Origin: Escherichia phage Cyrano
Sequence record: OV696614
Length of the DNA stretch: 64,000 nucleotides
Reading direction: 5' to 3' (one strand)
A program made the translations under genes and the position numbers. This document shows positions 11,137-52,620 of the stretch, in pieces. How positions within the stretch are numbered: position 1 is the first letter of the stretch; each line of letters starts with the position of its first letter. Below the pieces are notes generated by a model, which saw only the letters and a list, made by a program, of their open reading frames with translations, was not told the DNA's origin and made no database searches.

Positions 11137-13245
11137 ATGTCTAAAAAACGTTCCATCAAAGAGGTTCAGGACTTCCGTGACAGTGTAAAACGAGTAGTCG
11201 CTCTCCTTTCAGGTAAAAACATCCCTGTTGCAGAACGAGGGGACGACGCTTATGTACGCTATAACGATGATGGAGAGCCAATTCTCGTAAACATCCCATC
11301 AATCCCGGATAACGCAACACCGGCATTGATGAATGCTGTGCGCGGATTTCTCGATCATGAGGTTGCTCACATTTTGTTTACCGATATTCGTGTGTCCAAC
11401 AAAATGAGAGAAAAAGGACGCGTTCCTTCCTGGTCGCTATGGAATGCCTTAGAAGACGTGTTCATCGAGCGAAAAATGGGTCAGGTCTTTAACGGAACAA
11501 GACGTAATCTGATGGCAACTCAGCGCCTTATTATCGAAAAAGTCTTTAAACCAAAGGCTTCAGAGGCTATTGCTTATTGTGGCAAAGATCAGCGCGCGCT
11601 TTTTCTAAACTTCTTTCTCTGTCCGGTTGTAAGAGCCTGGGATGGCCAAGCACCGTTCGTAGATTTCATGGATGAATATTGGCCTGTCATTGAGAAACCA
11701 ATTTCATTATTAAAAGAACATGGTATCGATGTGGCCGTGCGTAACATGTCTTGCACCGAGGATTGTGTAAAGGTGGCTGCGACCATAGCTAAGATCCTCA
11801 AAGACACTGAAAGTGAAAGCAACGGTAAGGAGTCAGCTCCGGGAAAAACTTCCGATCCTTCAGACGCTGACCAGACGGATGCCTCTGGAGAAAACAATGA
11901 AGATAACGAAGATCATGAGACACCCTCAGCGTTAGATAATCACAAATCTATCAAATCAGAATCACACAATAAGCACAAACATGATAATAATGACAGTGAT
12001 GATTTAGATAATTCTGAATCATCAGAAACAATATTCGATGATACAGAAAATGATAAAGAGGTATCAGATTCTGATGCTTCTGATAACGCGGCGTCAGAAT
12101 CATTAACCGCTGACCACGAAAAAAGAAAAACGACAGAAGACGGCTCTTCAGATATTCCAACTCCGTCAAAAATGAGTCTGGAAGAGGCTTTAGAGGAGCT
12201 GGATAGCATAGAAGATGAAGTCGGAGGCATGACAGAAGATGCTCTATCCGAAACGATTAAAAGCGAGTTAACAGAAAGCTCGAAAAGCGAATACAGGCCA
12301 TACAATCGCTCATACGACTTCATCGGCTCGATTGATCAGGCAGAAGCCCATATCAAACGGCTTATTAAAACATTCTCCGATATTGATTTAGGAGGATGTC
12401 CAATCAGCCGCTATCGCATCGTTCCTGAAGGCAACCAGCTCTTCGACAAATATATTGAAAAGCATCTTTCGTCAGGTGTTTCGTCGACGCTGGCAAAAGA
12501 CCTGGAGCGAGCAATAGCAAGCAGAAACAGAGTTCAGTTTATACCGGGCCAGCGTCGGGGGCGCATTCATGGTTCTAGTATCTACAGATTAGCAATGAAT
12601 GATGATCGCGTGTTTCGTAAAAAAGAAGAATCTAAAGCCGTTAACGCCTGTGTTCAACAAGTGATTGATTTATCAGGTTCAATGAGGGGTATAACGATAC
12701 AATTGGCTCTTGCAAGTGCATATACCATCGCCGATGCCCTTGATCGAATAAATGTTCCCAACATTATCACCGGCTTCACTACATTTGGTAGTCATATGGC
12801 GGCAGGAGAACTTAAGGCTGTCAAGTATGAGTTCTCTCGCTTTGAATCTTTAATGCTACCTATCATCAAAAATTGGAATGAAAAGGTAAATTCTCGCGAA
12901 GTTCGCTCACGTATGGGGTGCGTAGGCTACACATTCCCACTTCTTAATAACGTGGATGGTGAAAGCATAGCCAGCCTTGCATCGTTATTTTCCGGTCGCA
13001 TGGAGGACAGGAAGATCATGCTTGTTCTGAGCGATGGCGAGCCGTGGGCTGTTGGGAGAGGTTTTGACGCTCATTTGCGTTCGGTTGCGAAGCAAATTGA
13101 AACGCAGACTGACATTGATTTGATGGCAATTGGCATCATGACTGACGCACCGGAGAGATTTTACTCAAATCATGCCCTGGTAACGAGCGTTGATAGTCTT
13201 GGTTCATCTGTAGTTACTGAACTATCTCGTATCATTTTAAAGTGA
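11137..13245 (+). CDS. von Willebrand factor A domain protein (CobT-like)
   Basis: 702 aa; C-terminal vWA MIDAS motif VIDLSGSM; long acidic Ser/Asp/Glu-rich linker. Confidence 0.7.
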   Translation: MSKKRSIKEVQDFRDSVKRVVALLSGKNIPVAERGDDAYVRYNDDGEPILVNIPSIPDNATPALMNAVRGFLDHEVAHILFTDIRVSNKMREKGRVPSWSLWNALEDVFIERKMGQVFNGTRRNLMATQRLIIEKVFKPKASEAIAYCGKDQRALFLNFFLCPVVRAWDGQAPFVDFMDEYWPVIEKPISLLKEHGIDVAVRNMSCTEDCVKVAATIAKILKDTESESNGKESAPGKTSDPSDADQTDASGENNEDNEDHETPSALDNHKSIKSESHNKHKHDNNDSDDLDNSESSETIFDDTENDKEVSDSDASDNAASESLTADHEKRKTTEDGSSDIPTPSKMSLEEALEELDSIEDEVGGMTEDALSETIKSELTESSKSEYRPYNRSYDFIGSIDQAEAHIKRLIKTFSDIDLGGCPISRYRIVPEGNQLFDKYIEKHLSSGVSSTLAKDLERAIASRNRVQFIPGQRRGRIHGSSIYRLAMNDDRVFRKKEESKAVNACVQQVIDLSGSMRGITIQLALASAYTIADALDRINVPNIITGFTTFGSHMAAGELKAVKYEFSRFESLMLPIIKNWNEKVNSREVRSRMGCVGYTFPLLNNVDGESIASLASLFSGRMEDRKIMLVLSDGEPWAVGRGFDAHLRSVAKQIETQTDIDLMAIGIMTDAPERFYSNHALVTSVDSLGSSVVTELSRIILK

Positions 13246-28143: not shown

Positions 28144-28150
28144 TAGCACC

Positions 28151-28634
28151 AACCACTGCGGTGAGTAGTCTGCTCACCGCATTCGTATCCAGCTCATTAT
28201 CCACTGTAGTCAGTAACAAAACCTTCCTACATATCTGCTAACCACTGTAGCGAGTAGACAGCCTTTCATTCGCATCAAACAACCACTATGGTGAGTATTG
28301 GAGTGAGATGTCCAGCGGGTATCCACTATGGTGAGTAAGCCTTTGCTGTTTTCAGTGGATATCCACTCGCCACAGTGGATACGCTCAAAGATGAGGGCGA
28401 CAACAACCACTATAGACAGTAAATTTTCCAAGATACCCAGTGACCACTAACCTCGCAGCCCTTGTTTCATCAGTGTTAGTGATCACTAACATTTAATTCA
28501 GTATTTGCATTCTACTGCCTACAGTGGTTATCAACAGATAACGATACTCACTATAGTGGATAGCGAATTACAGATATAAGTAAGGCTCACTACAGTGGAT
28601 AGTGAGCCTTACTACTAACTACAGTGGTTGGGCT
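28151..28634. repeat. Iteron array downstream of repA (incA-like copy-control region)
   Basis: About 7 copies of aaCCACTRYRGTGAGTA then about 4 inverted copies (ctacagtgg / cactatagtgg). Confidence 0.75.
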
Positions 28635-29688
28635 ATTTGCGAGTCTTTGCCTTGCGCAACTCTTCGAGAAGCGCCAGTTCTTCTTTACTCAACATGACCA
28701 TTTTGCCTTCTTTTTCGTCAGGCACAACGTCGATAATGTCATCTTGATTCTCATCTGGGAGGCTATATTCCGTCTCATCATTATCGATTTTTGTTGATAT
28801 TTGTGCCTGGCGTAACTTTGGCCGCCTATAGTGGATGACGAAGTAGACCGAGTTTCCGCGCTTAACTTCCGTGTAATCGAGATATCCTATCTCTCGCAGC
28901 TGTTCCATAGCCTTTCTTACCGTCGCATTCTGAGTAATAGTGCGACTTGTCAGATTAAGTCTGGCGCGTAAACGGGCTAGTGATATTGGTGCCGGATCAG
29001 GCGGCAAACTTTCAATAAAAGTATAAAGCGCCTGAGCGGATTCTTTTCTTGAGAGTTCGTTTATAGCCCGGAGTTGCAGAAGAACCTTTTTGTCGAACTG
29101 GTAGAGTTCGAAAATCTTGGGATCTGCTTTCAGTTCGACCGTATCGTGCTTGACACTATATTTTGCCGTTTGCACAAGATGCGTTACGTAAAACTCATCA
29201 GAGCCTTTGCTACGGAACGAGATGGTATTTGTGGCAATACGGCTTAGCGAACTGTCCAGGCGTTTGCGTAACTTCGCTGATGACCTGGCGGTCGGAATGC
29301 CACACAGCCTTACAAACTCAACGAACGGCAACGTGACAGTATCGCCAACGACCTTGTGTTTGGCAAACGCGTGGATTATTCCCACCCACGTTTTAAAGTC
29401 GTTATCCATATCAAGCCGAAGGCCAGAGATCCTTATGTCTTCGTACCCTTCGGCTTTTGCCAGAGACAGCTGTTTGAGTTCAGCAGAGGCATCCATAGAG
29501 ACCATTTGCCCCTTTCTTCCTCTGGATGTCGATTTCAGCGTCGGAACGAAGAGGCCCAGACGCATCAAAGCAACAGGCTGAACAGTGTTATTAGTGTTAG
29601 GAACCAACGTAACAACTTCGCCTGTCTTTTTATCTGTTTCTGAAAATGCTTCAACGATCGCTATGTTTTTATTGCCGTTTTCGCTCAT
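28633..29688 (-). CDS. repA: Plasmid replication initiator RepA (P1 RepA-like)
   Basis: 351 aa; flanked by iterons; blocks [54 protein letters not shown] match my recollection of phage P1 RepA. Confidence 0.8.
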
Positions 29689-29732
29689 TCCAAATGTCTC
29701 TTGTTATTCGACGGCTTTGGTGGCCTTTGCTG

Positions 29733-29856
29733 ATTACAGTGGATAGTAGCACTCATCACAGCGGTTATCCTACCGTCTATAGTGGTTTTTCTCCTCTCTA
29801 TAGTGGTTGCTTTGCTCCCTATAGTGGATTATTCGCTCTCTATAGTGGATATCGAT
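29733..29856. repeat. Iteron array upstream of repA (origin/incC-like)
   Basis: ctctatagtggWT units at about 22-bp periodicity. Confidence 0.75.
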
Positions 29857-29898
29857 CATGTCTGAAGGCAGATGGCACAACGGTTTGAGGTGGGCGGG

Positions 29899-29971
29899 GA
29901 TCTTATTGGGTCTTTATGGGTCTCTTTGGTTCTCTTTGTGATCTGAATTACTGGATCGGGCCTGTGGATAA
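29899..29971. promoter_or_regulatory. Origin core elements: GATC sites and DnaA box
   Basis: GATC at about 29899, 29940 and 29954; perfect DnaA box tgtggataa at about 29963-29971; AT-rich stretch follows at about 30040-30110. Confidence 0.6.
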
Positions 29972-30129
29972 AAATCAGAGGATTTCAAGAACAGGTAACT
30001 CTACTCTTCTGTGGATATTTAAGGACATAAGAATCATGACTAAGAGTAGAGTTTAAAATATATCTATGTATATCAGTATGTTAATGAAGAATTAAGTCAT
30101 TAAGTTATCCATAAAAGACAATGTGCTCT

Positions 30130-30235
30130 ACTCTCTACAGTGGATATATACAGCTCTCCAGAGTGGTTGTTTTACTCTTCATAGCGGTTATTCAGCTCTC
30201 TACAGAGGTTTCTTTGCTCTCCATAGTGGATGGCA
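30130..30235. repeat. Second iteron array on far side of origin
   Basis: Five units (ctctacagtgg, ctccagagtgg, cttcatagcgg, ctctacagagg, ctccatagtgg) at 22-bp spacing. Confidence 0.7.
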
Positions 30236-30272
30236 ACACCCTTTCAGACCAGTAACCGCAACGGCTAGAGGC

Positions 30273-30330
30273 GATCGGGGATCTCTTTGGATCTTCTATT
30301 TGATCTTACTTGGGATCTCTTATTTGGATC
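30273..30330. promoter_or_regulatory. GATC cluster (probable Dam/SeqA-controlled origin element)
   Basis: Six GATC within about 58 bp at 7-13 bp spacing, followed by a DnaA-box-like agtggataa. Confidence 0.6.
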
Positions 30331-30431
30331 TATCCAGTGGATAACTGGGATAAGTAAAACAGGCAAATGCAGATTAAGGTATGCCTAATGAGTTATCGTA
30401 GCATCGGCCAATAACTACTGAAAAAACGATT

Positions 30432-41734: not shown

Positions 41735-42148
41735 ATGGCAAGAGGTATGTATGTCTTATGCGAAATTGAAGGTGTGCTGGCAAATGCCAGCCATCGTAAA
41801 TCAGTATCTGACGCGGATGCAGGCCAGCTCATTGCCGGTGATGAACTCATTTTCCCCACCAGCCGTATGTTGCGTGGTTTTGCTCGCTCAGGGGCTGAAG
41901 TGGTGCTTATCAGTAGCCGCTCTGAAACTCTTGAAGCGCCCACTAAACGATGGCTGAAAGATTTTGGCGTTGATTACGACTGGCTTCATCTCGTACCGAA
42001 TAGCACCAGTTATGAGAAGCATATTAAGCGCACATTAGCGGAGCATAAAGGCGATCTGCTTATCGCTGCGCTGGTGCACGATCCTCGACTCCGTGCCGCT
42101 TTAGCTGACTCTCATCATAGACCGGTCATCTATGAGGTGAGCAAATGA
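41735..42148 (+). CDS. hypothetical protein
   Basis: Start moved to ATG right after the thyA stop (MARGMYVL); 137 aa. Confidence 0.4.
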   Translation: MARGMYVLCEIEGVLANASHRKSVSDADAGQLIAGDELIFPTSRMLRGFARSGAEVVLISSRSETLEAPTKRWLKDFGVDYDWLHLVPNSTSYEKHIKRTLAEHKGDLLIAALVHDPRLRAALADSHHRPVIYEVSK

Positions 42149-42621
42149 AGATGATAGCTGCTGTTGGCCGTAACTATGAGATCGGCATAGCGAACGAACT
42201 GCCCTGGCGTTGTTCTACCGATCTGAAGCTATTTAAGAGACTCACCAAAAACGCCACTGTCGTTATGGGGCGTAAAACGATGGAAAGTCTCAAACGCCCT
42301 CTTCCAGAGCGTCATAACCTCGTTTTGACGCGCTCTCATGGCTTTGTACCAAATGGATTCTACCCTGCTGGTGTGGATGATGTGTTGCGATTACCAGAGC
42401 CTGTGTGGGTGATTGGCGGGGAACAAATTTACTCGCTATTCATGCCGCATGTTGAAGAGATTTGGCTCTCCCACATCGGCGTTGATGTACCAAACGCCGA
42501 TGCATTCTTCCCGGCAAGCATGATGCGTAACTTAGGCTTTGTGCCTGTTGAAACAGCTTATACCCAACGAGCCAGCGAGGAAGAGCCTGGCTTTTCGCAG
42601 ATCGTATACAGAAGGTCGTAA
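42145..42621 (+). CDS. Dihydrofolate reductase
   Basis: 158 aa; MIAAVGRNYEIG..LPW, VVMGRKT, VIGGEQIY motifs. Confidence 0.85.
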   Translation: MKMIAAVGRNYEIGIANELPWRCSTDLKLFKRLTKNATVVMGRKTMESLKRPLPERHNLVLTRSHGFVPNGFYPAGVDDVLRLPEPVWVIGGEQIYSLFMPHVEEIWLSHIGVDVPNADAFFPASMMRNLGFVPVETAYTQRASEEEPGFSQIVYRRS

Positions 42622-43755: not shown

Positions 43756-44313
43756 ATGACAACGATTGTTGCAGGCATCGATATCGAGTCTACGGGACTG
43801 GATTTCCTTGCTGGTCATAAAATTATTGAAATCGCAATTACCCGCTATGAACTGGAGACACAGAGACATATTGATAGTCTGGAGATGCGTTTTAACCCTC
43901 GCAGAAACATAGATCCGAAAGCTCAAGCCGTTCATGGCATTTCATTAGAACAGCTGGCAGCTGAACCTTTGTTGTCAAATCATGCCAGCGAAATTGGCGC
44001 TTATATGGAGGCATGTAGTGCGTGGGTTGCTCATAACGGCGAAGCATTTGATATACCATTTATTAGACACGAGTTTTCAGGGTATGGAGTAAGACTGCCA
44101 GACGTTCCCGTTATAGATACTATGTTATCGGGATTGTGGGCCACAGAAGACGGTAAACGTCCTCGTCTTGAAGAATTGGCCTTCTCTCTTGGCTTTATAT
44201 ACGATCATGCCAAAGCACATAGTGCCTTATATGACACAAACTTAATGATGCAATGCTTCTTTAAGGCACGTAATAAATACGGATTTTTTAAATTACCCTC
44301 TGAAATTGTGTAA
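43756..44313 (+). CDS. DnaQ-like 3'-5' exonuclease
   Basis: 185 aa; Exo I GIDIESTG, Exo II AHNGEAFDIPF, Exo III HSALYDT; AGGAG RBS. Confidence 0.75.
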   Translation: MTTIVAGIDIESTGLDFLAGHKIIEIAITRYELETQRHIDSLEMRFNPRRNIDPKAQAVHGISLEQLAAEPLLSNHASEIGAYMEACSAWVAHNGEAFDIPFIRHEFSGYGVRLPDVPVIDTMLSGLWATEDGKRPRLEELAFSLGFIYDHAKAHSALYDTNLMMQCFFKARNKYGFFKLPSEIV

Positions 44314-44317
44314 AACA

Positions 44318-44357
44318 AAAGCCTGCTTTAAAGAGAGTTTGAAGCAGGCTTTCTTTT
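44318..44357 (+). terminator. Probable rho-independent terminator
   Basis: agcctgctt .. aagcaggct stem followed by ttcttttaaag. Confidence 0.5.
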
Positions 44358-44473
44358 AAAGAACAGTCGCCTTTCAATCATTTCCTGCCTGTATTTAATA
44401 CTTTTCCGCCTGATAGGTTTAGTCAAAATGTAGCCATCGAAACGCAAATGCAACTAAACAGAAGGAGACTTAC

Positions 44474-45283
44474 ATGAGTTCGGTTGAAAATGTAATGACA
44501 AATGATGATCTGGATGAGCTGACAGCCATGTTGCAATCACTTGATGAACCAGTAAAAAAAGCTGCACAGGTTGAAAATACTGATGATATTGACGATCTGC
44601 TTCTCGGCCTCGATGCTGGCGTAGCCATGAGTTCTGATGATGTTGCCGAAGAACTGTTCAATGAAGAAAAAGCAGGTGATTTCAGCTCTGCTTTAAATGA
44701 GTTGGAGTTAGCGCATGAGCCTATAAACGTAATTAATGCTGAAAGTGTTGAAGCTGCCGTAAACGAGCCAGAACAATTGGGATTTATTGAGGTTGAAGGG
44801 TGTGTTGAGGTTAATGAAGAATTAAAAGTTCAACAGTCAAATGATAGCAATACAAATAAAAAAGCTCGTACTGCAAGAGGTCCTCGCTTCACTTTAAGTG
44901 ATAAAGATGATTCGTTTTTCAATAAAGCGGGCTTAGAAAAAGATATTTTCTTAGACGCTTACGATAACGCGCCTGTCAAAGCAAAGGATAAGATATTAAA
45001 CCTTCTTAATTGGTTTAGCGGAGGTCCAGATATTAGTGTTTACACGGTAATTTCCATGAGACACCTTCTCACAGAAAAGAAGGCTACAAGTAATAGTATT
45101 AAGATTGCTTTAATGAGCAATCCAGAAAAACCGTATCCGCTTAACACTGCGTCAACTCAGGCTGGGCAAATGATGGCTGTATTTCCAGCGACAGGAATTG
45201 CCGTTAGAGACGGTGGAAATCTAACATTGAACGAAGAATCACCGATCGTTAAGAAGTTTGTAGCGGAGTACACTATTGGATGA
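44474..45283 (+). CDS. highly acidic protein, unknown function
   Basis: 269 aa; N-terminal half very rich in Asp/Glu; GAAGGAG RBS. Confidence 0.5.
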   Translation: MSSVENVMTNDDLDELTAMLQSLDEPVKKAAQVENTDDIDDLLLGLDAGVAMSSDDVAEELFNEEKAGDFSSALNELELAHEPINVINAESVEAAVNEPEQLGFIEVEGCVEVNEELKVQQSNDSNTNKKARTARGPRFTLSDKDDSFFNKAGLEKDIFLDAYDNAPVKAKDKILNLLNWFSGGPDISVYTVISMRHLLTEKKATSNSIKIALMSNPEKPYPLNTASTQAGQMMAVFPATGIAVRDGGNLTLNEESPIVKKFVAEYTIG

Positions 45284-45435
45284 CGTCCCCCTACTGAAAA
45301 TAAAGCCCATAGAGAGCTTTATAGTGCTGGGTAAGCCAATCACATATCCAGCACCACAAAAACGCGCCAGAGAGCTTCTCGTTTGCATTTCTGGCGCGTT
45401 TTATTTGATTGCCAGACATAAAATCAAATGCAAAA

Positions 45436-45456
45436 ATAGGTAATCACTTACCTATC
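45436..45456. repeat. Intergenic palindrome family (best copy)
   Basis: ataggtaatcacttacctatc, near-perfect inverted repeat just upstream of the methyltransferase gene. Confidence 0.45.
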
Positions 45457-45466
45457 GAGAAAGAAG

Positions 45467-46060
45467 ATGATTGCAGCCGAAAAAATCAAACAGCGAAAGC
45501 GCGACAACTCTCTTCGTGACCTCTGGAGAACACCTGACTGGCTGTTTTCTGCCATTCAACGTTATCTTGGAGTGACATTTGATGTTGACGTTGCCTGCAA
45601 CAAGGACAATGCGAAGCTGCCTAATTTCATAGGCGTTGAGCGTGATGCTTTGAAATCTGAATGGGGACAGCCAGGTACAATTGCCTTCCTCAATCCACCC
45701 TACTCCAAAATCTCCCCCTGGATTGATGCGGCTATACGTGAGCAGGCTCGCGGAGTTACAACAGTGATGCTAATTCCTCAATCCCTCGATACAAAGTGGT
45801 ATGAGCGTGCAACAGAGTGTGCGAATGAGACGATTATTCTGTCTGGTGGCCGCGTAGCGTTTGTCGAGCCTGACGTCAATTTGGGTCAGGTAGAAGTAAA
45901 CATCAACCCCGGTGGCAGTATGCTCGTTGTTTTTCGAGGATTCTGTCAGGACGCTGGGCACTCTATAAGCAAGATCCCTTTGGACGTCATGAAAAGTCTG
46001 GGAGGGTATGATCCTGCGAATGTGATCAGGAAAAAAAGACCATCAAAGAAGGCTGCTTAG
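45467..46060 (+). CDS. DNA N6-adenine methyltransferase (phage Dam-like)
   Basis: 197 aa; catalytic motif FLNPPYS. Confidence 0.7.
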   Translation: MIAAEKIKQRKRDNSLRDLWRTPDWLFSAIQRYLGVTFDVDVACNKDNAKLPNFIGVERDALKSEWGQPGTIAFLNPPYSKISPWIDAAIREQARGVTTVMLIPQSLDTKWYERATECANETIILSGGRVAFVEPDVNLGQVEVNINPGGSMLVVFRGFCQDAGHSISKIPLDVMKSLGGYDPANVIRKKRPSKKAA

Positions 46061-46222: not shown

Positions 46223-46477
46223 ATGAACCACTTTAAGGAAACCAACATGTCATACCCGACTAATGTCGTTGCGCTCGTAGAGAGCGATTTTCTGGCCCAG
46301 GCTCGTGAAATGATGAAAGATCGTGAGCAGGCTTTCAACTTGTACGAGTGGGCAATTAAGTGCTTGCATCTTGGCGAGCATCGCGAACTTGTTGAACAGC
46401 TTTTAGGTGAGTTGATCAATGAGGTGTTTGCCTTGAATGTTCAACTACATGGTCGAGAAAATAATCAATCACAATGA
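46223..46477 (+). CDS. hypothetical protein
   Basis: 84-aa ORF. Confidence 0.4.
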   Translation: MNHFKETNMSYPTNVVALVESDFLAQAREMMKDREQAFNLYEWAIKCLHLGEHRELVEQLLGELINEVFALNVQLHGRENNQSQ

Positions 46478-50934: not shown

Positions 50935-52620
50935 ATGAATACAGCCCTTTCCATCATCGACGATGCCAACTCAAACACTGCTATCGACTATCGGCAGGAA
51001 ATGAACGTCATCCACGAAATTGTGGCCGAGTGCGAGAAAGAGATCGCTTTCATGTACCAGGTTCACGACTTCGTTTATGGCGACGAACGCCACAACATGA
51101 TTAATCGCCTGCTGCAACTGAACCACCGACCAGATGAAGAACGCTCACGTTTGAATCGAGCTTGGCTGGATAAAGTCGATCTGGAATGGGTGAAACAGAA
51201 TATTTGGGCCGAGTACTGGAGGAAGGTCACGGACATGACTAACGTTTTGCTGATCATGCCAGCTTCCCGTCGAGATGAGTGGCGCGAGCAGTTTATAGAG
51301 GGCAAACAGGAAGTCATCAAAACTGACAGAACCGGCTACCAGATGAAGGTTAAAGAGTTCGTTGGTGTACCGGAGTTCAAAGCAGAAACGGTCATACCCA
51401 CGATGCTTAATTTGCTGAATGACAGGCACAAATATCTCTCTGAGCGCGTGTATGGCTTGTTTAAGGCGCTGAGTCCTGCGCACAAGACAAATAAGACAAA
51501 CGGTTTCAGCGAGCGGCTGATAATCGCTGACTGCATTTCTGATTTCTGGCGGGACAGCGTTAGCGTGAACTATCGCAAAGAGGACTACATCGACGATCTG
51601 CGTGTCTTGCTTCATTTCTTCGCGCACAAAGAATTTATTACCATCAACCGCACTGCTGAGGTGCTATCAGCTGCGTATCGGGCAAACGACTGCCAGACCG
51701 GTGACTGGATGAACGTCGATGGAAATCTGATGCGCGTGAAGATGTTCAAGAACGGCAACGTTCACTTTGAAATACATCCTGACGTGGCCTGGAAGTTGAA
51801 TGAGGTGCTGGCTTACAGTATGCCTGCTGCAATTCCCGCGCCATGCCGAACTGCGCCAAAAACACGGGCACCAAAGCAGTTCGGGTTAATCCAGAAGACG
51901 ATCTCCGTGCCGGTTCGCACTGCGCTTCGTGACGGGCGATTGAGCAAAGACAAAGGCGTATGGTACTTCTCTGATTCAGCTCTCCAGAAGTCGCAGGTGG
52001 AAGAGCTTGAGCGCACACTGAGCTTCATTGGCGGCGTGCAGGAGAAAAAGCACTGGCAGTTCCCGTATGACATCGGCCATACGCTAAATACGATTGTGGC
52101 TACCGGTTTAATACCGGATACAAAATCACACCAGTTCTACCCTACCCCACGCTTGATTGCTGAGTACGTTGCCAGAGCCACTGAATTGAAGCCTGGTGAG
52201 AAGCTGCTTGAGCCTCAAGCCGGACGTGGGGATCTTCTGGCCTATATTAACGCCGATCTGGAAGATGTTACCTGCATAGAAATCGCACCTCTCTTCGCTG
52301 ATATCCTGCGTGGAAAAGGGTATACGAACACGATTTGCTGCGACTTCATAAAGTGGTCTGAGGACAACGCAGGTTATCAGTTCGACAAAATCGTTATGAA
52401 CCCGCCGTACTCGCTTGGTCGTCATAGAGAGCACACGCTGGCTGCGCTGGGGCATCTGAAAGTCGGCGGGCGTCTTGTAGCAGTATTGCCGGGCACTGCG
52501 CCAATCCTGAGCTGGATGACGATGGATAATTACGTTTATGCCAAAGGGAAGTCGTTTACCAACGAGTTTGAAGATACCGGGATCACAGTCAGCGTATACG
52601 TTTTCAAACGCGTTAAATGA
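50935..52620 (+). CDS. N6-adenine DNA methyltransferase with large N-terminal domain
   Basis: 561 aa; C-terminal SAM-binding LEPQAGRGDL and catalytic MNPPYS; N-terminal about 380 aa unassigned. Confidence 0.65.
   Translation: MNTALSIIDDANSNTAIDYRQEMNVIHEIVAECEKEIAFMYQVHDFVYGDERHNMINRLLQLNHRPDEERSRLNRAWLDKVDLEWVKQNIWAEYWRKVTDMTNVLLIMPASRRDEWREQFIEGKQEVIKTDRTGYQMKVKEFVGVPEFKAETVIPTMLNLLNDRHKYLSERVYGLFKALSPAHKTNKTNGFSERLIIADCISDFWRDSVSVNYRKEDYIDDLRVLLHFFAHKEFITINRTAEVLSAAYRANDCQTGDWMNVDGNLMRVKMFKNGNVHFEIHPDVAWKLNEVLAYSMPAAIPAPCRTAPKTRAPKQFGLIQKTISVPVRTALRDGRLSKDKGVWYFSDSALQKSQVEELERTLSFIGGVQEKKHWQFPYDIGHTLNTIVATGLIPDTKSHQFYPTPRLIAEYVARATELKPGEKLLEPQAGRGDLLAYINADLEDVTCIEIAPLFADILRGKGYTNTICCDFIKWSEDNAGYQFDKIVMNPPYSLGRHREHTLAALGHLKVGGRLVAVLPGTAPILSWMTMDNYVYAKGKSFTNEFEDTGITVSVYVFKRVK

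What the first reader, a model, noticed from the sequence alone, without database searches (positions are those of the whole stretch)
44474..46060. Highly acidic protein immediately upstream of a Dam-like orphan methyltransferase
A 269-aa protein with an extremely Asp/Glu-rich N-terminal half precedes an N6-adenine methyltransferase (NPPY) that has no partner restriction enzyme. Acidic DNA-mimic proteins (Ocr- or ArdA-like) and orphan methylases are classic anti-restriction tools. The methylase may also regulate the GATC-rich plasmid origin in this window.
Basis: inference. Interest (0 to 1): 0.5.

Follow-up and report, generated by a model that had tools for sequence, protein, structure and literature searches.

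The report
Acidic winged-helix phage protein, separate Dam methylase
The acidic protein is not an Ocr/ArdA-type DNA mimic but an uncharacterised phage protein with a floppy acidic arm on a winged-helix (probably DNA-binding) domain, and the gene after it is an ordinary, separately transcribed phage Dam-type methylase.

Summary
The window is an SSU5-like phage-plasmid of E. coli. A 269-aa ORF (44474-45283) has a very acidic N-terminal half, and the next gene (45467-46060) is an orphan PF05869/TIGR01712 N6-adenine methylase with an NPPY motif.

The anti-restriction-pair reading is only partly supported.
- **The two genes are separate units.** They lie 183 bp apart, across a strong intrinsic terminator that is conserved in relatives. 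A second terminator precedes the acidic gene.
- **The acidic region does not look like a rigid mimic.** It is poorly conserved and predicted disordered.
- **The family is large but unannotated.** It has 661 representatives in ~105-120 kb phages of enterobacteria, Pseudomonas, Stenotrophomonas and Rhizobium, always near a DnaQ-like exonuclease.
- **The Dam gene is a clade-specific neighbour.** It sits next to the acidic gene only in the SSU5 clade (80/80 loci, against 0/42 distant loci).

Best reading: a DNA-binding accessory factor of the replication and nucleotide-metabolism module, with a polyanionic regulatory or recruiting arm. The methylase is a common orphan phage Dam, probably GATC-specific, and could plausibly act on the real GATC-rich P1-like origin. 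Interest is modest.

The parts
43756..44313 (+). DnaQ-like 3'-5' exonuclease (185 aa). This is the conserved upstream neighbour of the acidic gene across the whole family.
   Evidence: PF00929 RNase_T at E 2.5e-21 and phrog_192 'DNA polymerase exonuclease subunit'. Found within 8 kb in 41 of 42 distant loci.
44318..44357 (+). Intrinsic terminator after the exonuclease gene.
   Evidence: 15-bp stem, -20.9 kcal/mol, z -4.6, followed by UUUCUUUU.
44474..45283 (+). Gene for the 269-aa acidic winged-helix protein (phrog_5235). It appears to be a monocistronic unit.
   Evidence: All homologues are annotated 'hypothetical'.
44474..44851 (+). Polyanionic N-terminal arm (aa 1-126). It holds a conserved amphipathic acidic helix (aa 10-25, DDLDELTAMLQSLDEP), a second motif (aa 37-47, IDDLLxGLD), and then a variable disordered stretch.
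   Evidence: Net charge -28 over aa 1-120. pLDDT is 81 for aa 11-20, 52-64 for aa 21-80 and below 50 for aa 81-132. Column identity is 0.78 and 0.69 for the two motifs against 0.34 for aa 81-134. Acidity is conserved across the family, with median net charge -24 in 185 members.
44852..44890 (+). Short K/R-rich linker (aa 127-139, NKKARTARGPRFT) between the arm and the folded domain.
   Evidence: Net +4 in the window aa 121-140. Lys/Arg-rich tracts occur at the same place in distant members.
44891..45280 (+). C-terminal folded domain (aa 140-269): three helices followed by a winged helix (H-S-H-H-S-S) and a C-terminal helix.
45359..45410 (+). Intrinsic terminator between the acidic gene and the methylase gene.
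   Evidence: -26.2 kcal/mol, z -5.9, then UUUUAUUU. The hairpin is kept in SSU5 and other divergent relatives, with changes on both arms such as GCGCCAGA/TCTGGCGC to GCACCAGA/TCTGGTGC.
45409..45437 (+). Sigma-70-like promoter candidate for the methylase gene (TTGCCA-17-AAAAAT with an extended TG).
   Evidence: Consensus scan at 9/12. Such matches are no more frequent here than in shuffled sequence, so this is weak evidence.
45467..46060 (+). Orphan phage N6-adenine DNA methyltransferase (197 aa, NPPY at aa 76-79).
   Evidence: PF05869 at E 2.5e-38. TIGR01712 at 113.9 bits against a cutoff of 97.05. PADLOC 'orphan methyltransferase' models. Homologues in 1603 phage records.

Best explanation
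These are two independent genes in the replication and nucleotide-metabolism block of an SSU5-like phage-plasmid.

**Gene 1.** It encodes a core, lineage-specific protein with three parts: a long, intrinsically disordered, strongly acidic N-terminal arm; a short Lys/Arg tract; and a C-terminal winged-helix domain. The arm carries one or two short conserved amphipathic acidic helices.

The most likely mechanism is inferred, not shown. The winged helix binds DNA through an invariant Lys/Asn stripe (K169, K173, N176) and an invariant polar recognition helix (T225, Q229, Q232). The tethered polyanionic arm then either folds back to gate that binding or recruits or competes with other nucleic-acid-binding proteins. 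Acidic tails of SSB, T4 gp32, T7 gp2.5 and HMGB1, sigma-70 region 1.1 and the RNA polymerase delta subunit work in this way. The protein would serve phage DNA replication or transcription. It is not a rigid Ocr/ArdA-type decoy for restriction enzymes.

**Gene 2.** It is a common orphan phage Dam-family methylase, acquired only in the SSU5 clade and transcribed on its own. It probably methylates GATC. That would protect against methylation-sensitive GATC cutters and keep the GATC-rich P1-like origin (and any other GATC-dependent sites) methylated.
For: **Shown**
- The element is an SSU5-like phage-plasmid (98-99.5% identity to Escherichia phage PhiR41_1/CMS-2020a and about 200 E. coli plasmids).
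- Terminators sit on both sides of gene 1. The downstream one is conserved with changes on both arms.
- AlphaFold2 gives pLDDT above 90 for aa 140-269 and below 50 for aa 81-132.
- The family has 661 representatives at 50% identity, nearly all 220-330 aa with the same layout.
- Acidity of the arm is conserved (median net -24, D+E 24%) while its sequence is not. The winged-helix core is net positive (mean +3.7).
- Invariant residues are K169, K173, N176, T225 and Q232.
- Gene order is conserved in phages of four host groups and in metagenomes: ribonucleotide reductase, ThyA, DHFR, AAA_28 kinase-like, DnaQ-like exonuclease, then this gene.
- The element encodes its own DnaE, DnaB-like helicase, primase, ligase and RNase H.
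- The methylase passes curated family cutoffs. It is present next to gene 1 in 80/80 SSU5-like loci and 0/42 distant loci.
- The characterised relatives M.EcoVT2Dam and M.EcoT1Dam methylate GATC, as does a cloned 35%-identical relative of the latter (PMC6602927, PMC4996451).
- The origin has 6 GATC in 55 bp beside Rep3-type iterons and DnaA-box-like sites.

**Inferred**
- DNA binding by the winged helix.
- The gating or recruiting role of the arm.
- GATC specificity of the methylase.
Against: - No member of the family has been studied, and no Pfam, NCBIfam, PADLOC or PDB sequence relative exists. Function therefore rests on fold and context.
- The recognition helix is nearly invariant across phages of very different hosts. 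That is unusual for a sequence-specific regulator.
- No candidate binding site was found. There are no iterons in or beside the gene. The one strongly enriched palindrome in the window is confined to the SSU5 clade.
- Conserved gene order within one phage lineage is weak evidence of functional linkage.
- The folded domain is only weakly basic (+1 over aa 135-269).
- For the methylase, 30-39% identity to GATC enzymes does not fix specificity, and E. coli already has Dam.
Confidence: 0.5

Rival explanations
1. One reading: the acidic protein is a DNA-mimic anti-restriction protein (working like Ocr or ArdA) that forms an anti-restriction pair with the orphan methylase. A softer form has the disordered polyanionic arm itself acting as the DNA decoy, with the winged helix only positioning it.
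For: Strong negative charge (net -28 over 120 aa) is conserved as a property across 185 family members. The gene belongs to a phage element that must face restriction. It is adjacent to an orphan methylase in all 80 SSU5-like loci. Known DNA mimics are non-homologous to each other, so lack of homology does not exclude the activity (review PMC12707154).
Against: - There is no Ocr (PF08684) or ArdA (PF07275) match, even at E<=10.
- Neither protein appears among the listed fold matches in the PDB or BFVD searches.
- Known mimics are rigid folded dimers. Here the acidic part is disordered and poorly conserved, and the conserved part is a near-neutral to basic winged helix.
- Ocr and ArdA are expressed first on DNA entry. 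This gene sits inside the nucleotide-metabolism and replication block between terminators.
- The methylase is absent next to the gene in 0/42 distant loci.
Confidence: 0.1
2. The protein is a host-RNA-polymerase accessory or takeover factor that works like the Gram-positive delta subunit or sigma-70 region 1.1. The folded domain docks on RNA polymerase, and the disordered acidic arm enters the nucleic-acid channel to displace DNA or RNA or to change promoter selectivity.
For: The architecture mirrors delta, which has a folded ~90-aa domain plus an intrinsically disordered acidic region of net -47 (PMC7749165). A K/R tract lies at the junction. The folded-domain surface is invariant across phages of different hosts, which fits a conserved protein target such as RNA polymerase. 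The lineage has no RNA polymerase among the annotated genes seen, so presumably relies on the host enzyme.
Against: No sequence similarity to delta/HARE-HTH or to sigma was found in Pfam or PDB searches. Delta and sigma region 1.1 are not among the top structural matches. The domain order is reversed. There is no direct evidence of RNA polymerase binding.
Confidence: 0.15
3. The protein is a protein-protein adaptor of the phage Pol III-type replisome. The winged helix or the acidic helices bind the DnaQ-like exonuclease, DnaE or the helicase, and DNA binding is secondary.
For: The gene lies within 8 kb, often within 100 bp, of the DnaQ-like exonuclease in 41/42 distant loci. The element encodes DnaE, a DnaB-like helicase and a primase. 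The 185-aa exonuclease is shorter than E. coli epsilon (243 aa), whose C-terminal tail binds the alpha subunit; this comparison is from my own knowledge. Short conserved acidic helices in a disordered arm look like linear binding motifs. Winged-helix domains of cullin, Stn1 and RPA32 type mediate protein contacts.
Against: The distance to the exonuclease varies from 4 bp to 6 kb, with unrelated genes between, and in two loci the order is inverted. A terminator separates the two genes here. All members belong to one lineage with globally conserved gene order. No interaction test could be run.
Confidence: 0.12

Closest known systems
T7 Ocr (gp0.3) and ArdA DNA-mimic anti-restriction proteins
   Same: High density of Asp/Glu, and encoded by mobile elements that face restriction.
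   Different: Ocr and ArdA are compact, rigid, fully folded dimers whose surface charges copy B-DNA, and they are expressed first on entry (PMC12707154). Here the acidic part is disordered and variable. A conserved winged helix makes up the other half. There is no sequence or fold match, and the gene lies in the replication block.
RNA polymerase delta subunit (RpoE) of Bacillus and other Firmicutes
   Same: A small folded helical/winged-helix-like domain, a Lys-rich junction and a long intrinsically disordered polyanionic region (delta: net -47) (PMC7749165).
   Different: The domain order is reversed (the acidic arm is N-terminal here). No HARE-HTH sequence match was found, the hosts are Gram-negative bacteria, and RNA polymerase binding is untested.
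Winged-helix DNA-binding regulators (Fur/PerR, BlaI/MecI, ArsR, MarR) and linker-histone globular domains (H5/H1)
   Different: Sequence identity is only 7-17%. No metal- or ligand-sensing domain was detected by sequence searches. The protein has an extra three-helix N-terminal extension and a ~130-aa acidic arm. No operator was identified.
Acidic-tailed DNA-binding proteins (E. coli SSB, T4 gp32, T7 gp2.5, HMGB1)
   Same: The same logic of a DNA-binding module joined to a disordered acidic tail that competes with DNA and recruits partners, set in a replication context. The properties of these proteins are from my own knowledge.
   Different: Those proteins use OB folds or HMG boxes and have short C-terminal tails. 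Here the module is a winged helix and the arm is long and N-terminal.
Phage Dam-family orphan methyltransferases (PF05869/TIGR01712; M.EcoT1Dam, M.EcoVT2Dam)
   Same: The methylase at 45467-46060 passes both curated models and has NPPY. It has no partner nuclease and shares 30-39% identity with T1-like and Stx-phage enzymes.
   Different: Nothing notable, and its specificity has not been measured. It is an SSU5-clade addition. The methylase-like gene conserved across the whole lineage is a different one (DUF4942, 50935-52620).

Membership tests
Ocr (PF08684) DNA mimic | Sequence membership of the Ocr family | tested here: not met
   The Pfam scan returned no Ocr match at E<=0.01 or at E<=10. 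PHROGs assigns the protein only to unknown-function families.
Ocr / ArdA DNA mimics | A compact, rigid, fully folded acidic scaffold that copies the shape and charge of B-DNA | tested here: not met
ArdA (PF07275) | Sequence membership of the ArdA family | tested here: not met
   No match in Pfam at E<=10 or in PADLOC.
Ocr / ArdA DNA mimics | Inhibition of type I restriction-modification enzymes | not testable with these tools
   This needs efficiency-of-plating or binding assays.
Winged-helix DNA-binding domain | H1-S1-H2-H3-S2-S3 topology with a recognition helix and a beta-hairpin wing | tested here: met
Winged-helix DNA-binding domain | Actual DNA binding | not testable with these tools
   Only indirect evidence is available: invariant K169, K173, N176, T225 and Q232, and conserved K/R at positions 219 and 245.
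Phage N6-adenine methyltransferase (PF05869 Dam; TIGR01712) | Score above the curated family cutoffs | tested here: met
   PF05869: 131.8 bits against a cutoff of 28.1. TIGR01712: 113.9 bits against 97.05.
Phage N6-adenine methyltransferase (PF05869 Dam; TIGR01712) | Catalytic (D/N)PP(Y/F) motif | tested here: met
   NPPY at residues 76-79.
Phage N6-adenine methyltransferase (PF05869 Dam; TIGR01712) | GATC target specificity | not testable with these tools
   Inferred only. M.EcoVT2Dam and M.EcoT1Dam methylate GATC (PMC6602927, PMC4996451), and identity to Stx-phage and T1-like homologues is 30-39%.
Orphan methyltransferase | No cognate restriction endonuclease in the neighbourhood | tested here: met
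   The neighbours are a DnaQ-like exonuclease, the acidic winged-helix protein, an 84-aa protein with no family match and RNase H. No nuclease domain of restriction type was found among the ORFs of about 41-56.5 kb that were submitted to Pfam. PADLOC's best hits are 'orphan methyltransferase' models.
RNA polymerase delta subunit (HARE-HTH + acidic disordered region) | HARE-HTH N-terminal domain homology | tested here: not met
   No Pfam match. The profile search of PDB sequences found nothing relevant. The resemblance is one of architecture only.

The most novel reading that the evidence does not exclude
The family is a new class of 'tethered disordered DNA mimic'. A winged helix anchors the protein on phage DNA or on a host nucleic-acid enzyme. 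A ~130-residue polyanionic arm with short acidic helix motifs then locally competes DNA-binding host proteins off the phage genome. Candidates are restriction and BREX complexes, H-NS-type silencers and RNA polymerase. This would be a delta/sigma-1.1-like principle used by Gram-negative phages for host takeover or anti-defence.
Probability: 0.15. Interest if true: 0.7.

Novelty: new variant of a known kind. Interest (0 to 1): 0.3.

Why it matters
As first read (an Ocr-like decoy plus a methylase), this would have been a routine anti-restriction module, and that reading is largely not supported. What remains is a large, unannotated protein family: 661 representatives at 50% identity, with no Pfam family. 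It is a core gene of a widespread lineage of ~110-kb phages and phage-plasmids, including the SSU5-like plasmids found in about 4% of complete E. coli genomes (206 of 5426), some of which carry antibiotic-resistance genes. Learning what a winged helix with a conserved polyanionic arm does in these elements would fill a gap in how they replicate or take over the host. It could also add a disordered-mimic mechanism to the known rigid ones. The methylase and the GATC-rich origin together give a simple, testable link between phage-encoded Dam and plasmid-state replication.

Tried and rejected
- **Remote homology of the folded domain.** Profiles of 28 full-length and 30 C-terminal sequences against PDB sequences gave only noise (prefoldin E 0.23; a membrane protein E 1.1). 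Pfam scans of 28 diverse members gave no shared family. A second large-database search with the C-terminal profile returned only unannotated proteins.
- **Replication initiator with an origin inside its own gene, as in lambda O.** No iterons or significant repeats were found in 44300-45480.
- **The enriched palindrome AAACAA-N-TTGTTT as the protein's binding site.** There are 11 sites against 0.46 expected. The motif occurs in most SSU5-like loci (exact matches) but in none of the distant loci that also encode the protein, so the link is not supported.
- **A second palindrome family (TAAGTA-N5-TACTTA).** Not enriched.
- **afdb50 fold search.** The library was unavailable.
- **Distant loci with a 28-sequence alignment.** A 6-sequence alignment worked.
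- **Literature.** Searches on SSU5, pHCM2, Nickievirus and RHEph10 found no functional data on this gene.
Full report
**What the window is.** The region 43.7-46.5 kb is 98% identical to Escherichia phages PhiR41_1 and CMS-2020a. It is 95-99.5% identical to plasmids in 206 of 5426 complete E. coli genomes. The same genes occur in Salmonella phage SSU5 at 57% protein identity. The window is therefore an SSU5-like phage-plasmid. Annotation of near-identical plasmids places the finding inside a block of replication and nucleotide-metabolism genes. That block holds ribonucleotide reductase, thymidylate synthase, DHFR, a kinase-like AAA_28 protein, a DnaQ-like exonuclease and RNase H. The element also encodes DnaE, a DnaB-like helicase, a primase, a ligase and a Rep3-type RepA.

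**Check of the observation.** ORF 44474-45283 encodes 269 aa behind an AGGAG ribosome-binding site.
- Residues 1-120 contain 32 Asp/Glu and 4 Lys/Arg, a net charge of -28. Residues 135-269 are nearly neutral; the C-terminal part from residue 126 has pI 9.3.
- Among 53 non-overlapping ORFs of at least 100 aa in the window, it has the highest acidic fraction. Its most acidic 120-residue stretch ranks second.
- ORF 45467-46060 encodes 197 aa with NPPY at residues 76-79. It matches PF05869 (E 2.5e-38) and passes the NCBIfam equivalog TIGR01712, 'phage N-6-adenine-methyltransferase', at 113.9 bits against a cutoff of 97.05.
- None of the ORFs between about 41 and 56.5 kb that were submitted to Pfam shows a restriction-nuclease domain.

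**The two genes are not a unit.** The 183-bp gap contains a hairpin of -26.2 kcal/mol (z -5.9) followed by UUUUAUUU, then a promoter-like site. The hairpin is kept in SSU5 and other relatives whose protein is only 53-66% identical. Both arms change together, for example GCGCCAGA/TCTGGCGC becomes GCACCAGA/TCTGGTGC or GCGTCAGA/TCTGACGC, which argues that it functions. A second terminator (-20.9 kcal/mol, z -4.6, UUUCUUUU) follows the exonuclease gene. The acidic gene is thus bracketed by terminators and looks monocistronic.

**Anatomy of the acidic protein.** AlphaFold2 with 22 homologues gives a two-part picture.
- Residues 140-269 are predicted with pLDDT 88-97. They form three helices followed by a canonical winged helix (H189-201, strand, H206-214, H223-240, two-strand wing) and a final helix.
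- Residues 81-132 are below pLDDT 50.
- Residues 21-80 are low-confidence helices at pLDDT 52-64.
- Only a short N-terminal helix (residues 11-20, mean pLDDT 81) is moderately confident.

Conservation matches this picture. Within the SSU5 clade, column identity is 0.80 for residues 166-269 and 0.34 for residues 81-134. It is 0.78 and 0.69 for two short acidic amphipathic motifs at residues 10-25 (DDLDELTAMLQSLDEP) and 37-47 (IDDLLxGLD). A short Lys/Arg tract (NKKARTARGPR) joins the arm to the folded domain.

**Fold and family.**
- Ocr and ArdA are not among the listed matches in the PDB or in the BFVD viral-structure library.
- The protein matches no family in Pfam (even at E<=10), NCBIfam or PADLOC. 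It matches no PDB sequence, either alone or as a profile.
- PHROGs places it in phrog_5235, and its C-terminal part in phrog_3932. Both are of unknown function.
- An exhaustive profile search finds 661 representatives at 50% identity. Nearly all are 220-330 aa with the same layout. Every database name is 'hypothetical protein'.
- In 185 members, the region before the winged helix has a median net charge of -24 (D+E 24%), while the winged-helix core averages +3.7. Acidity is therefore selected as a property although the arm's sequence drifts.
- Across 30 diverse C-terminal domains, K169, K173, N176, T225 and Q232 are invariant. S188, Y190, T191, Y221, A226 and Q229 are nearly so. These residues form a Lys/Asn stripe on the helix before the winged helix and the polar face of the recognition helix.

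**Distribution and context.** Homologues occur in ~105-122 kb phages and viral contigs. These include SSU5-like elements of enterobacteria, Pseudomonas Nickievirus, Stenotrophomonas BUCTxx99/ANB28, the Rhizobium RHEph10 group and metagenomic relatives.
- In 80 of 80 SSU5-like loci, the Dam-family methylase lies 134-1231 bp downstream.
- In 42 distant loci, none has a Dam-family gene within 8 kb. Forty-one have the DnaQ-like exonuclease nearby, usually upstream on the same strand at 4 bp to 6 kb. The one exception has a short flank.
- Pfam-labelled metagenomic contigs show the same order: ribonucleotide reductase, ThyA, DHFR, PRA-PH, AAA_28, RNase_T exonuclease, then this gene. A DUF4942 methylase-like gene follows further downstream.

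The Dam gene is therefore an SSU5-clade addition placed after the acidic gene's terminator. It is not a conserved partner.

**Most likely mechanism.** What is shown is the architecture, its conservation, the fold class, the transcription signals and the synteny. What is inferred is the function.

The best-supported reading is a DNA-binding winged helix carrying a tethered polyanionic, disordered arm. Arms of this kind either fold back on the basic DNA-binding surface to gate it, or recruit or compete with other nucleic-acid-binding proteins. SSB, T4 gp32, T7 gp2.5, HMGB1 and sigma-70 region 1.1 work this way (own knowledge). So does the Firmicute RNA polymerase delta subunit, which has a folded N-terminal domain plus a disordered acidic region of net -47 (PMC7749165).

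The position of the gene suggests a role in phage replication or transcription. I put this general reading at 0.5. Within it, I cannot separate a DNA-bound regulator from a delta-like RNA polymerase factor (0.15) or a replisome adaptor (0.12).

Several points weaken a sequence-specific regulator:
- The recognition helix is invariant across hosts.
- There are no repeats in or beside the gene.
- The one strongly enriched palindrome in the window, AAACAA-N-TTGTTT, has 11 sites against 0.46 expected but is confined to the SSU5 clade.

**The DNA-mimic reading.** Known mimics are rigid folded dimers that are expressed first on entry (PMC12707154). Here the acidic part is disordered and variable, and the conserved part is a winged helix. 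The gene sits mid-block between terminators, and there is no sequence or fold resemblance to Ocr or ArdA. Membership of the Ocr and ArdA families is rejected. A function as a disordered decoy cannot be excluded by computation, and I give it about 0.1.

**The methylase.** It belongs to a very common phage family, with homologues in 1603 phage records. These include Stx phages at 39% identity and T1-like phages at about 30%. The characterised relatives M.EcoVT2Dam and M.EcoT1Dam methylate GATC, as does a cloned 35%-identical relative of the latter (PMC6602927, PMC4996451). GATC specificity is therefore likely but unproven. GATC is not avoided in the window, with 276 sites observed against 246 expected.

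Upstream of repA (28633-29688, minus strand; Rep3 WH1/WH2 domains) lie two sets of 21-bp iterons. Each set is followed by an array of GATC-containing decamers and a DnaA-box-like site. One array has 6 GATC in 55 bp at 30273-30327, and the other has 4 GATC in about 100 bp at 29854-29954. This layout resembles P1 oriR, whose GATC repeats must be Dam-methylated for initiation (own knowledge). Whether the phage enzyme matters in a Dam-positive host is untested.

**Verdict.** The methylase is an ordinary orphan phage Dam. The acidic protein is an uncharacterised winged-helix family with a conserved polyanionic arm. It is a new variant of a known kind of protein, of modest interest, and worth a small set of direct experiments.

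Noticed in passing
window 80, 11105, 26595, 38326, 48549, 49278, 53818, 61114, 61165, 62605, 63801: The 13-bp palindrome AAACAA-N-TTGTTT (extended consensus AAGAAAACAAnTTGTTTAA) occurs 11 times at up to 1 mismatch, against 0.46 expected. Where checked, sites lie about 30-45 bp upstream of + strand start codons. It is conserved in SSU5-like loci and absent from distant relatives. It is a candidate operator or promoter element for an unknown regulator.
   Followed up: partly
window 28633-30431: Plasmid replicon. repA (Rep3 WH1/WH2, minus strand) has an upstream origin made of two sets of 21-bp iterons (CTCTATAGTGG...). Each set is followed by a GATC-decamer array (6 GATC in 55 bp at 30273-30327) and a DnaA-box-like TGTGGATAA/CAGTGGATAA. 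More iteron-like copies lie downstream of repA at 28148-28605. The layout resembles P1 oriR/incA.
   Followed up: partly
window 50935-52620: A 561-aa protein with DUF4942, annotated 'DNA methyltransferase' in SSU5 (SSU5_095). Unlike the Dam gene, it is conserved downstream of the acidic gene in distant metagenomic relatives (L127-L129). It is the methylase-like gene conserved across the lineage.
   Followed up: partly
L002 27239-33812 (plasmid pEcoFMU073332c): In a plasmid 99.5% identical over the finding, a complete type I R-M cassette (hsdR, hsdS, hsdM) sits where the window has the DUF4942 gene. PGAP marks that gene as a partial pseudogene there.
   Followed up: no
window 42145-42621: PGAP names the DHFR gene in near-identical plasmids as trimethoprim-resistant DfrA51. 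It lies in the same block as the finding.
   Followed up: no
window 43756-44313: The DnaQ-like exonuclease is only 185 aa, the exonuclease domain alone. E. coli epsilon is 243 aa, and its C-terminal tail binds the polymerase alpha subunit (own knowledge). How this protein joins the phage DnaE is unclear.
   Followed up: no
window 11137-13245: The 702-aa protein here, named CobT-like in related plasmids, contains the only stretch in the window more acidic than the finding (net -31 over 120 aa from residue 242).
   Followed up: no
window 44328-44453 (minus strand): A 41-aa ORF annotated as a hypothetical protein in PhiR41_1 overlaps the terminator and the likely promoter region between the exonuclease and acidic genes. 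It is probably not a gene.
   Followed up: no
window 46223-46477: An 84-aa protein (phrog_5343, no Pfam match) follows the methylase in nearly all SSU5-like loci long enough to show it, and is absent from distant loci. It travels with the Dam gene, and its function is unknown.
   Followed up: partly
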